Shown: one piece after another, positions 9,004-9,511 of the stretch | Layout: each line of letters begins with the position of its first letter | Numbering within the stretch: position 1 is the stretch's first letter | Source of the DNA: a virus | Lineage: Duplodnaviria; Heunggongvirae; Uroviricota; Caudoviricetes | Virus record (IMG/VR): IMGVR_UViG_2534681662_000018 | Direction: 5' to 3' (one strand) | Length of the DNA: 33,372 nucleotides | Notes under the pieces: generated by a model | The model's database searches: none | What the model saw: the letters and a program-made list of their open reading frames with translations, nothing else | Told to the model about the DNA's origin: nothing | Position numbers and translations under genes: made by a program

Positions 9004-9369
9004 ATGAATAATGAAACTAAATTTACGCCTAAACACCTGGATGAGGAGCTGGTGAAGGCAGGAATGCTGGAGCGTATGCGGGATATCATTGAGTTTGCAA
9101 TTGATAACGAACTTACCGCTCGTGAGGCATTAGAGATTATCAACCGTGAAATTGAACTCATCAAAGACGTAGTGAAACTTGATAACAAAATAGCCCGCGA
9201 CAAATTTGTTCGTCGCGAGCTTGGATTAAACGAGACAGATATTATCCGTCCTCAAGATTATTTGTGTTTGTTTAATCCTTTTGATAATCGGAGATTTGAG
9301 CAGAAAGATTGTCCAGATGCCAGTTCAGGTCAATCTCAGCATTCTGGCGGAAAGAATCAGCCTCTTTAA
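9004..9369 (+). CDS. Early-region hypothetical protein (121 aa; 3' end uncertain)
   Basis: ATG at 9004 after AAGGTG; AT-rich; the 3' 98 nt overlap the convergent minus-strand ORF 9272..9511. Confidence 0.5.
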   Translation: MNNETKFTPKHLDEELVKAGMLERMRDIIEFAIDNELTAREALEIINREIELIKDVVKLDNKIARDKFVRRELGLNETDIIRPQDYLCLFNPFDNRRFEQKDCPDASSGQSQHSGGKNQPL

Positions 9370-9511
9370 TGGTTTGTCGTGTTGTGGAAATAATGCTGTC
9401 AGCCTCGTCAATAGTGATTACTCCTTTACGAACGAGAGTTATGAGCAGATTACCTGACAACACAAATGAACAATAATCAAATGGAATAAGAGATAATTGA
9501 TTGTCAGACAT
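9272..9511 (-). CDS. Candidate small antisense protein (79 aa)
   Basis: Minus-strand ATG at 9511 preceded by AGGAGA with 5-6 nt spacing (minus-strand sequence AACAGGAGACACTT-ATG). N-terminal 47 codons lie in the 215-bp AT-rich gap between the upstream ORF and gemA. Codon use is plausible. Confidence 0.35.
   Translation of the reverse strand: MSDNQLSLIPFDYCSFVLSGNLLITLVRKGVITIDEADSIISTTRQTIKEADSFRQNAEIDLNWHLDNLSAQISDYQKD

What the first reader, a model, noticed from the sequence alone, without database searches (positions are those of the whole stretch)
9272..9511. Antisense 79-aa ORF with a strong RBS in an AT-rich island of the early operon
Everything else in the early region is read rightward, yet here a minus-strand ORF starts with ATG at 9511 behind a near-ideal Shine-Dalgarno (AGGAGA, 5-6 nt spacing). 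Its first 47 codons fill the 215-bp gap before gemA, the largest non-coding gap in the early operon and clearly more AT-rich than the surrounding phage. Its 3' end overlaps the 3' end of the convergent upstream ORF by 98 nt, so at least one of the two gene models may be wrong. I cannot tell from memory whether this ORF is already annotated in Mu.
Basis: seen in the sequence. Interest (0 to 1): 0.6.

Follow-up and report, generated by a model that had tools for sequence, protein, structure and literature searches.

The report
Local allele of Mu gene 15
The antisense 79-codon ORF is a real gene, a fast-evolving version of phage Mu's uncharacterised leftward gene 15, which has its own ribosome-binding site and terminator, so it is genuine but already annotated and of unknown function.

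Summary
A minus-strand ORF lies at 9272..9511 (79 aa, ATG), with AGGAGA five nt upstream. It fills the 216-nt gap before gemA and overlaps the gp14 homologue by 98 nt.

It is not new. RefSeq Mu (NC_000929.1) annotates the equivalent leftward gene as Mup15/gp15, and UniProt lists it as GP15_BPMU. SfMu_16 and a Yersinia phage gene are the same. D108 leaves its 119-aa homologue unannotated. The revised GenBank Mu record replaced gp15 with a plus-strand 55-aa ORF, Mu_54.

Fourteen diverged Mu-like phages all keep the leftward ORF at this position. All ten checked have ATG and a Shine-Dalgarno. The nine-sequence codon alignment has no stops, whereas the Mu_54 frame has 23 stops.

Two conserved hairpins flank the gene. 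One is a terminator for the leftward transcript, buried in gp14 and more stable on that strand in all 14. The other is terminator-like on the early strand and abuts the gemA Shine-Dalgarno.

The gene is the most diverged segment locally: about 45% DNA identity to Mu between flanks above 90%. The predicted protein is a small, usually acidic three-helix bundle with no characterised relatives.

I found no promoter and no expression data. Function and timing remain inferred.

The parts
9272..9511 (-). gp15-family gene (79 aa), the positional and sequence homologue of Mu gp15 (Mup15)
   Evidence: ORF listing. Full-length match to phrog_32893, E=7e-46. BLASTP to Mu gp15 E=2e-10, to the D108 ORF E=1e-9, to the Stx1-phage Mu-like ORF E=8e-16. 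Across 9 diverged homologues this frame has 0 stops and codon-position variability pos2<pos1<pos3. AF2 predicts a three-helix bundle, pLDDT 79. The best BFVD match is Mu Q38493, TM 0.68.
9517..9522 (-). Shine-Dalgarno AGGAGA, five nt before the ATG
   Evidence: Read directly from the sequence. All 10 homologues checked carry an SD-like purine run 4-8 nt before an ATG.
9182..9221 (-). Hairpin A plus U-tract (stem-loop 9192..9221, tail ATTTTGTTAT 9182..9191): intrinsic terminator for the leftward gp15 transcript, embedded in the gp14 coding sequence
   Evidence: Terminator scan hit on the minus strand, 13-bp stem. Present in 14/14 diverged phages, 18-76 nt after the gp15 stop. Mean dG is -17.7 on the gp15 strand against -12.1 on the early strand. 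There are 1-3 G.U pairs per sequence on the gp15 strand and none on the early strand in 13 of 14 sequences. 95.8% of cells are paired and 2 pairs show double-sided changes. TransTermHP predicted the same site in Mu.
9543..9575 (+). Hairpin B (AGGCCGCGC-TAAC-GCGTGGCCT, 9543..9564) plus a T-rich tail running into the gemA Shine-Dalgarno (GGAG 9572..9575): terminator-like element on the early strand between gp15 and gemA
   Evidence: GC-rich hairpin of -12 to -19 kcal/mol at the same place in 13/13 phages, followed on the early strand by a T-run that abuts the gemA SD. The stem sequence differs between lineages with pairing kept.
9004..9369 (+). gp14 homologue (121 aa). Its last 98 nt overlap gp15 convergently, and residues from about 100 to 121 are a non-conserved tail
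   Evidence: phrog_6075 match E=1e-46, ending at about residue 99 of the 121-aa gp14 homologue. Selection contrast between body and tail against the closest relative. gp14-like genes of 95-104 aa in relatives.
9586..10134 (+). gemA, divergent neighbour of gp15. The two ATGs are 74 nt apart
   Evidence: Pfam GemA PF06252, E=9e-32. The gp15-ATG to gemA-ATG distance is 65-74 nt in enterobacterial relatives.

Best explanation
The ORF is a real protein-coding gene: this prophage's allele of phage Mu gene 15.

Shown:
- It lies at the gp15 position, between gp14 and gemA, and reads leftward against the early operon.
- It has its own strong Shine-Dalgarno and ATG.
- About 50 nt past its stop, inside the gp14 coding sequence, sits a hairpin plus U-tract. 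The hairpin is conserved in every relative and is built to fold on the leftward RNA. This is a dedicated intrinsic terminator, and together these features define a short monocistronic leftward unit of about 330-350 nt.
- A second conserved hairpin, followed by a T-run on the early strand, separates the gene from gemA.
- The gene is the most diverged segment of the region, with sharp boundaries of near-identity on both sides.
- The predicted product is a small, usually acidic three-helix bundle. Its first two helices are joined by an LVxKGVITxxEA-type turn.

Inferred:
- The unit is transcribed by host RNA polymerase independently of the early promoter Pe. It would then be expressed mainly when Pe is repressed, in the prophage.
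- On induction it would be silenced by convergent Pe transcription and sense-antisense pairing over the gp14/gp15 overlap.
- The protein would act by binding a protein partner and not DNA.
- Its rapid divergence would reflect an arms-race or specificity role, such as exclusion, anti-defence or immunity-linked function. This fits a moron-like cassette better than a housekeeping phage function.
For: Gene identity:
- NC_000929.1 annotates Mup15/gp15 at the equivalent place and strand. UniProt lists GP15_BPMU.
- PHROG cross-hits link phrog_32893 (window type), phrog_8747 (Mu type) and phrog_38610 (D108 type).
- Pairwise BLASTP gives E from 2e-10 to 8e-16.
- The best BFVD structural match is the Mu protein.

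Coding:
- ATG and SD are present in all 10 homologues checked.
- The gp15 frame has 0 stops and mean BLOSUM +1.15, and its second codon position is the most conserved. The opposite frame that shares wobble positions (the Mu_54 frame) has 23 stops and mean BLOSUM 0.0.
- AF2 gives pLDDT 79 and pTM 0.67.

Synteny: every locus retrieved shows gemA (or a DUF2786 gene followed by gemA) diverging from the ORF and a gp14-like gene converging on it.

Terminator: and the independent TransTermHP prediction in AF083977.1.

Hairpin B.

Hypervariability:
- The identity profile against Mu is above 90% up to 9000, 60-70% across gp14, 38-48% across 9251-9550, and 100% from 9601.
- Mean pairwise identity is 29% for gp15, 37% for gp14 and 50% for GemA.
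- Against the closest relative there are 16 differences in the 240-nt ORF and 4 in 240 nt of flanks.

Acidity: 13 of 14 homologues are net negative at pH 7, with pI 4.3-6.1.
Against: - No convincing sigma-70 promoter was found upstream on the gp15 strand in any of 9 phages. Scores are at background level and no position is shared. How and when the gene is transcribed is therefore unknown.
- No RNA-seq, Ribo-seq or proteomic evidence was available, and I found no paper assigning gp15 a function.
- The U-tracts after hairpin A are imperfect in several phages, for example TTACGATTGT. Hairpin A also coincides with the best-conserved gp14 peptide (ARDxxVRRELG), so part of its conservation is due to the protein.
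- Selection between the two closest alleles is only moderate: 7 non-synonymous against 6 synonymous codons.
- Some database variants are frameshifted after about residue 45.
- A near-universal, fixed position is unusual for a moron.
Confidence: 0.6

Rival explanations
1. Same gene, different role. gp15 would be a core regulator of the early-to-middle switch, not an accessory effector. Sitting with hairpin B at the entrance to gemA-mor, the protein, its convergent transcription, or both would limit leaky expression of the middle-operon activator Mor in the lysogen, or time it after induction.
For: The position is fixed immediately upstream of gemA-mor in every phage, with a 65-74 nt (or about 90 nt) spacing between the two ATGs. 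A terminator-like hairpin abuts the gemA SD. The gem operon is reported to be constitutively expressed in lysogens (Paolozzi & Ghelardini 1992, cited in PMC3820752), so some control at this junction is plausible.
Against: gp15 divergence is uncorrelated with GemA divergence (r=-0.10). Window and Mu share 93% GemA identity and a mor 5' region 94-100% identical in DNA (window 10131-10300; the rest of mor was not compared), but only 25-30% gp15 identity. That is hard to reconcile with a specific partnership with GemA or Mor. An acidic protein is an unlikely DNA binder.
Confidence: 0.2
2. The gene is expressed during lytic growth, not in the prophage. It would be driven by an activator-dependent promoter (Mor-type or C-type, lacking a -35) or by read-through from elsewhere on the leftward strand.
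For: The absence of any recognisable sigma-70 promoter is what an activator-dependent promoter would look like.
Against: No Mor or C site was identified; I did not search with a validated motif. Leftward transcription would run head-on into very strong Pe transcription during lytic growth. All other known Mu lytic transcription is rightward (established Mu biology).
Confidence: 0.12
3. The functional product is the antisense RNA, which would pair with the 3' end of gp14 and the early transcript. The ORF would be secondary or incidental.
For: The convergent overlap with gp14 is conserved, and the leftward terminator lies inside gp14. This guarantees roughly 100-150 nt of sense-antisense complementarity.
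Against: Conservation is at the protein level while the DNA has diverged to about 40-48% identity. ATG and SD are conserved in all 10 homologues checked, and the nine-sequence codon alignment has no stops and the codon-position pattern typical of coding sequence. The fold is predicted with confidence. No Rfam family matches. An added RNA-level effect is not excluded.
Confidence: 0.05
4. The minus-strand ORF is a shadow of a real plus-strand gene, as in the revised GenBank Mu annotation (Mu_54, 55 aa).
For: AF083977.1 annotates Mu_54 on the plus strand inside the gp15 ORF. The window has plus-strand ORFs of 55-58 aa here, but with TTG starts.
Against: The Mu_54 frame shares wobble positions with gp15. 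It accumulates 23 stops in 9 homologues, has mean BLOSUM 0.0, and shows the wrong codon-position pattern. Every opposite-strand frame has at least 2 stops in all 10 homologues. Mu_54 hits no PHROG.
Confidence: 0.02

Closest known systems
Phage Mu gp15 (Mup15, NP_050619.1; UniProt GP15_BPMU 'Uncharacterized protein gp15'); also SfMu_16 and vB_YpM_Tongde QMP18943.1
   Same: Same position (between gp14 and gemA) and same leftward orientation. Convergent 3' overlap with gp14, divergent from gemA, and the same two flanking hairpins. Shared N-terminal two-helix motif and matching predicted fold.
   Different: Only 30% identity over 46 residues. Length is 79 aa against 88 aa. The third helix carries a WHLDNL motif in the window type, where Mu has an acidic, proline-rich tail. 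PHROGs files them as separate families, 32893 and 8747. No function is known for either.
D108-type 119-aa ORF (unannotated in GQ357916/NC_013594; annotated as VUD37876.1 in Mu_3F6; phrog_38610)
   Same: Same locus, strand, hairpins and core motif. BLASTP E=1e-9.
   Different: It has a 30-residue, highly acidic N-terminal extension and a longer C-terminus, with net charge -15.
Morons of temperate phages (the Hendrix/Juhala concept, from my own knowledge): self-contained units with their own promoter and terminator, inserted in an operon, often AT-rich and expressed from the prophage
   Same: Self-contained unit with its own SD and its own terminator, in opposite orientation, lower in GC than its neighbours, with mosaic boundaries.
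   Different: No promoter was identified and prophage expression is untested. The position is fixed and the gene was present at this position in every Mu-like locus I retrieved, though those loci were found through gp15 homologues. That differs from the sporadic distribution typical of morons.
SHOCT-like / DUF2680 helix-turn-helix hairpin motif (PF22746, PF09851, PF10925)
   Same: The LVxKGVITxEEAxxI motif at the helix 1 to helix 2 junction resembles these short oligomerisation motifs. The profile search picked up DUF2680 repeat proteins weakly.
   Different: All scores fall well below the Pfam gathering thresholds (13-14 bits against 25-27). The third helix has no counterpart. This is a resemblance, not membership.
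olg1/olg2 and gene 10 of Pseudomonas transposable phage Fc02 (PMC9936078)
   Same: Small genes overlapping on opposite strands in a Mu-like phage. One set is transcribed in the lysogen and both confer superinfection exclusion.
   Different: Different location (beside the repressor and ner) and no sequence similarity. It serves only as a functional analogy for the inferred role.

Membership tests
Mu gp15 family (Mup15 / GP15_BPMU; phrog_8747, 32893, 38610) | Detectable sequence homology to Mu gp15 | tested here: met
   BLASTP window against Mu gp15: E=2e-10, 30% identity over 46 aa. Reciprocal PHROG cross-hits. A profile built from all types recovers all of them at E<=1e-20 among 1.84 billion proteins.
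Mu gp15 family (Mup15 / GP15_BPMU; phrog_8747, 32893, 38610) | Position and orientation: leftward, between the gp14-like gene and gemA, in a Mu-like early region | tested here: met
Mu gp15 family (Mup15 / GP15_BPMU; phrog_8747, 32893, 38610) | Similar fold | tested here: met
   The AF2 three-helix model has as its best BFVD match the Mu protein Q38493, with probability 1.00 and TMq 0.68.
Mu gp15 family (Mup15 / GP15_BPMU; phrog_8747, 32893, 38610) | Expressed as a protein | not testable with these tools
   No expression data were available. Only indirect coding signatures support it.
Moron (independent prophage-expressed transcription unit) | Own transcription terminator | tested here: met
   Hairpin A plus U-tract on the gp15 strand in 14/14 phages, with strand asymmetry.
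Moron (independent prophage-expressed transcription unit) | Own promoter | tested here: inconclusive
   Consensus and PWM scans gave only background-level hits with no conserved position.
Moron (independent prophage-expressed transcription unit) | Expression from the repressed prophage | not testable with these tools
   Requires strand-specific RNA-seq or reporter fusions.
Moron (independent prophage-expressed transcription unit) | Sporadic (accessory) distribution and deviant composition | tested here: inconclusive
   Composition is lower in GC but not uniquely so. The sequence is hypervariable with mosaic boundaries, yet the gene is present at the same site in every relative examined.
SHOCT / SHOCT-like / DUF2680 (Pfam) | Score at or above the Pfam gathering threshold | tested here: not met
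   13-14 bits against cut-offs of 25-27. Only 3 of 21 family members hit SHOCT-like, best E=0.0014.
Known anti-phage defence proteins (PADLOC-DB) | Match to any PADLOC model | tested here: not met
   No hits at E<=1 for the window, Mu and D108 proteins or for gp14.
Mu_54-type plus-strand gene (AF083977.1) | Open, conserved reading frame on the plus strand across relatives | tested here: not met
   23 stops in 9 homologues in that frame, mean BLOSUM 0.0. No PHROG match.

The most novel reading that the evidence does not exclude
In the Mu-like transposable phages retrieved here through gp15 homologues (enterobacterial, plus a more divergent lineage whose host I did not determine), the gp15 gene with its two flanking hairpins forms a conserved, self-terminated antisense cassette at the boundary between the early operon and gemA-mor. 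It would be expressed from the prophage, switched off by convergent early transcription on induction, and would encode a hypervariable small acidic effector. Candidate roles are superinfection exclusion, anti-defence, or a lock on gemA-mor leakage. On this reading the current GenBank Mu annotation (Mu_54) has replaced a real, selected gene with its shadow ORF.
Probability: 0.35. Interest if true: 0.6.

Novelty: already known. Interest (0 to 1): 0.3.

Why it matters
For the finding as posed, the answer is ordinary. The ORF is the local allele of Mu gene 15, which is annotated in RefSeq and UniProt, and its exact sequence is already in public databases and in PHROGs.

What this work adds:
- Three PHROG families (8747, 32893, 38610) and D108's unannotated ORF are one family.
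- Comparative evidence favours the leftward gp15 frame over the plus-strand Mu_54 of the revised GenBank Mu record. That is worth correcting.
- The gene carries a dedicated terminator encoded inside gp14, with D108 amino-acid changes that preserve the pairing.
- It is the fastest-diverging piece of an otherwise conserved region.

After decades of work on Mu, gp15 still has no function. The cassette architecture gives a concrete and cheap set of experiments to find one.

Tried and rejected
- Function by homology: Pfam, NCBIfam and PADLOC gave nothing significant. A profile against PDB sequences gave only E>=0.25.
- Known RNA families: Rfam found nothing credible across 8900-9900.
- Promoter: the consensus scan and my own PWM scan of 300 nt upstream in 9 phages gave background scores and no shared position. 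The candidate TTAATT-16-CATAAT overlapping the gemA ATG is not conserved in relatives, so I dropped it.
- The search for related loci with the family alignment failed because no stretch was conserved enough. I used the look-up of encoding contigs instead.
- tblastn of the 79-aa protein against isolated phages found only one hit, a Mu-like element inside an Stx1 phage. No complete E. coli genome among 5,426 carries this allele.
- Literature: seven full-text searches found no function or expression data for gp15. PMID 9454718, cited in AF083977.1 for a 'semi-early promoter', is not held.
- Specific partnership with GemA or Mor: I consider it unlikely because divergence is uncorrelated.
- DNA-binding regulator: I consider it unlikely because of the net negative charge.

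Full report
**1. The observation**

The window is a Mu-like prophage. The repressor lies at about 1598-2188 (leftward), followed by ner, A, B, kil, gam, gemA and mor reading rightward.

On the minus strand an ORF runs from ATG at 9511 to a stop at 9272 and encodes 79 aa. The minus-strand context is ...AACAGGAGACACTTATG. That is a near-consensus Shine-Dalgarno (9517..9522) five nt before the start.

The plus-strand gp14 homologue ends at 9369 and gemA starts at 9586.

GC content is 0.375-0.415 across 9100-9600. This is lower than the neighbours but no lower than three other stretches of the early region.

**2. It is already annotated in Mu**

The flanks match Mu, D108, SfMu and Yersinia Mu-like phages at 86-92% DNA identity. 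The centre does not align by megablast.

- RefSeq Mu (NC_000929.1) carries a minus-strand CDS at the equivalent place: Mup15/gp15, 7896..8162, 88 aa, hypothetical.
- UniProt lists it as GP15_BPMU, 'Uncharacterized protein gp15'.
- The 1990s left-end record M64097 had it as 'putative F-134'.
- SfMu_16, a Yersinia phage CDS and Mu_3F6 VUD37876.1 are also annotated on the minus strand.
- D108 (GQ357916) shows an unannotated 376-nt gap there. The gap holds a 119-aa minus-strand ORF.
- The revised GenBank Mu record AF083977.1 no longer has gp15. It annotates a 55-aa plus-strand ORF, Mu_54, inside it. An acknowledgement in PMC9239132 mentions an update of the Mu annotation.

**3. The ORFs are homologous**

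- Pairwise BLASTP of the window protein gives E=2e-10 against Mu gp15, 1e-9 against the D108 ORF, and 8e-16 against the ORF of a Mu-like element inside an Stx1 phage.
- PHROGs splits them into three families: 32893 (window type, E=7e-46 over full length), 8747 (Mu type) and 38610 (D108 type). These cross-hit one another.
- A profile of 21 members searched against 1.84 billion representative proteins found only 40 clusters at E<=1e-3. Nearly all are 60-120 aa. The few longer hits are DUF2680/SHOCT-like repeat proteins that share only the LVxxGVITxEEA motif.

**4. Which strand codes**

Mu_54 and gp15 share their wobble positions, so third-position variation cannot separate them. I codon-aligned nine diverged homologues.

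| Measure | gp15 frame | Mu_54 frame |
|---|---|---|
| Stop codons (9 sequences) | 0 | 23 |
| Mean pairwise BLOSUM62 | +1.15 | 0.0 |

- Nucleotide divergence by gp15 codon position is 0.58 / 0.42 / 0.69. The second position is the most conserved, as expected for coding sequence. The Mu_54 frame would have the reverse order for positions 1 and 2.
- The alignment was built on the gp15 frame, so the BLOSUM score is biased towards it. The stop counts and the position pattern are not.
- All ten homologues checked have ATG preceded by an SD-like element.
- Every opposite-strand frame has at least 2 stops in all ten homologues.
- Mu_54 hits no PHROG.
- AF2, given the family alignment, predicts a three-helix bundle (helices 13-28, 34-50, 62-78) with pLDDT 79 and pTM 0.67. 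Its best BFVD match is the Mu protein Q38493.

I conclude that the leftward frame is the gene and that Mu_54 is most likely a shadow ORF.

**5. Synteny**

I retrieved contigs for eleven family members, ranging from the window's own protein down to 22% identity with it. The arrangement is always the same. The gene reads against the early operon. It converges on a gp14-like gene of 95-122 aa, whose 3' end it overlaps or abuts by 4-98 nt. It diverges from gemA, or from a DUF2786 gene followed by gemA. The overlap is therefore a family feature and not an annotation conflict.

In this window the gp14 homologue runs about 20 codons past the usual end. Against the closest relative, the body of gp14 (codons 1-93) has 1 non-synonymous and 4 synonymous changes. 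The tail has 5 non-synonymous changes, some radical, and 1 synonymous.

**6. Two conserved hairpins frame the gene**

*Hairpin A* is at window 9192..9221 on the minus strand, followed by the tail ATTTTGTTAT.

- It lies 18-76 nt after the gp15 stop in 14 of 14 phages, inside gp14.
- On the leftward RNA its mean dG is -17.7 kcal/mol, against -12.1 on the early strand.
- Each sequence has 1-3 G.U pairs on the leftward strand. These would be A.C mismatches on the other strand. The early-strand folds have no G.U pairs in 13 of 14 sequences.
- 95.8% of cells are paired and two pairs show double-sided changes.
- In D108 the pairs changed G-C to A-U twice. This altered gp14 residues (ARDKFVRRELG to AHNNIVCRELG) while pairing was kept.
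- TransTermHP predicted the same site in Mu.

I read this as an intrinsic terminator for the gp15 transcript. A caveat applies: the site coincides with the most conserved gp14 peptide, and several U-tracts are imperfect.

*Hairpin B* is at window 9543..9564.

- It lies between the gp15 and gemA starts in 13 of 13 phages.
- On the early strand it is followed by a T-run that abuts the gemA Shine-Dalgarno.
- Its stem differs between lineages with pairing kept.
- It looks like a terminator or attenuator of early transcription just before gemA-mor.

**7. Rate of change**

| Window segment | DNA identity to Mu |
|---|---|
| up to 9000 | above 90% |
| gp14 | 60-70% |
| 9251-9550 | 38-48% |
| from 9601 (15 nt into gemA) | 100% |

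- Mean pairwise protein identity across eleven phages is 29% for gp15, 37% for gp14 and 50% for GemA. gp15 divergence is uncorrelated with GemA divergence, r=-0.10.
- Against the closest allele (91% amino-acid identity), the ORF has 16 differences in 240 nt and the flanks have 4 in 240 nt. There are 7 non-synonymous and 6 synonymous codons.
- 13 of 14 proteins are net negative at pH 7, with pI 4.3-6.1.

**8. What remains unknown**

- No sigma-70 promoter stands out upstream in any phage.
- Pfam, NCBIfam, PADLOC, PDB (by sequence and by fold) and Rfam gave nothing informative.
- No paper I could search gives gp15 an expression pattern or a function.
- The gem operon is reported to be constitutively expressed in lysogens (reference in PMC3820752). 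The gp15-gemA junction may therefore be active in the prophage, but this says nothing direct about gp15.

**9. Interpretation**

Shown: a real, conserved, leftward protein-coding gene with its own SD and its own terminator. It is hypervariable between conserved flanks and encodes a small helical, usually acidic protein.

Inferred:
- Transcription is independent of Pe, hence mainly in the prophage.
- Convergent early transcription shuts it off on induction.
- The protein acts by binding a partner, in a specificity or arms-race role.

Alternatives are a regulatory role at the gemA-mor entrance, lytic-phase expression from an activator-dependent promoter, and an RNA-only function. The last is unlikely.

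**10. Verdict**

Interest is modest. The useful by-products are:
- the unification of three PHROG families;
- the case against Mu_54 in the current GenBank Mu record;
- the two conserved hairpins;
- a clear experimental route to a function for gp15.

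Noticed in passing
L001 1843..2109 (-) versus 1907..2074 (+), i.e. Mu AF083977.1 7896..8162 versus 7960..8127: The two public Mu annotations disagree. RefSeq NC_000929.1 has leftward gp15. The revised GenBank AF083977.1 has rightward Mu_54 (AAF01092.2) inside the same DNA. Comparative frame analysis favours gp15, so Mu_54 looks like a shadow ORF sharing wobble positions.
   Followed up: yes
window 9543..9575 (+); same place in L001-L004, L012, L016-L019, L027-L030: A GC-rich hairpin followed by a T-run that abuts the gemA Shine-Dalgarno is conserved in 13/13 Mu-like phages. 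It looks like an intrinsic terminator or attenuator of early transcription just before gemA-mor. AF083977.1 labels the overlapping 8151..8217 as a 'semi-early promoter'.
   Followed up: partly
window 9192..9221 and gp14 residues of about 62-73 (IARDKFVRRELG): The best-conserved peptide of gp14 is encoded by the leftward terminator hairpin. In D108 two G-C to A-U pair swaps changed gp14 residues (R to H, R to C) while keeping the stem. The RNA structure appears to constrain the protein.
   Followed up: partly
L002 1839..2198 (-), i.e. D108 GQ357916 about 7853..8212: D108's GenBank and RefSeq records leave a 376-nt unannotated gap between gene 14 and gemA. The gap contains a 119-aa gp15 homologue with a very acidic N-terminal extension. 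The same ORF is annotated in Mu_3F6.
   Followed up: yes
P0016-P0020 (public assemblies; Stx1Mu-type alleles): Several database variants of the 79-aa type are frameshifted after about residue 45. They continue in the alternative frame and keep only the first two helices. They could be sequencing errors, pseudogenes or tolerated truncations.
   Followed up: no
L016 2042..2389 (+), L029 450..878 (+), L030 552..887 (+): Some relatives carry a further gene on the gp15 strand, between gemA and mor (111-142 aa, no Pfam hit). Antisense cassettes therefore recur in this part of Mu-like genomes.
   Followed up: no
window about 8307..9002 (+): The gene upstream of gp14 is a 231-aa protein (phrog_6418). 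Its C-terminal 56 residues are the Cys-rich zinc-ribbon of Mu gp13 (phrog_5584), fused to a larger N-terminal domain (phrog_2510-like). In Mu, gp13 is a separate 60-aa protein.
   Followed up: no
window 9150..9650: None of 5,426 complete E. coli genomes carries this gp15 allele. Only the first 62 nt of gemA matched. The identical protein occurs on about 20 metagenome or assembly contigs, so the allele is rare or comes from another enterobacterial host.
   Followed up: partly
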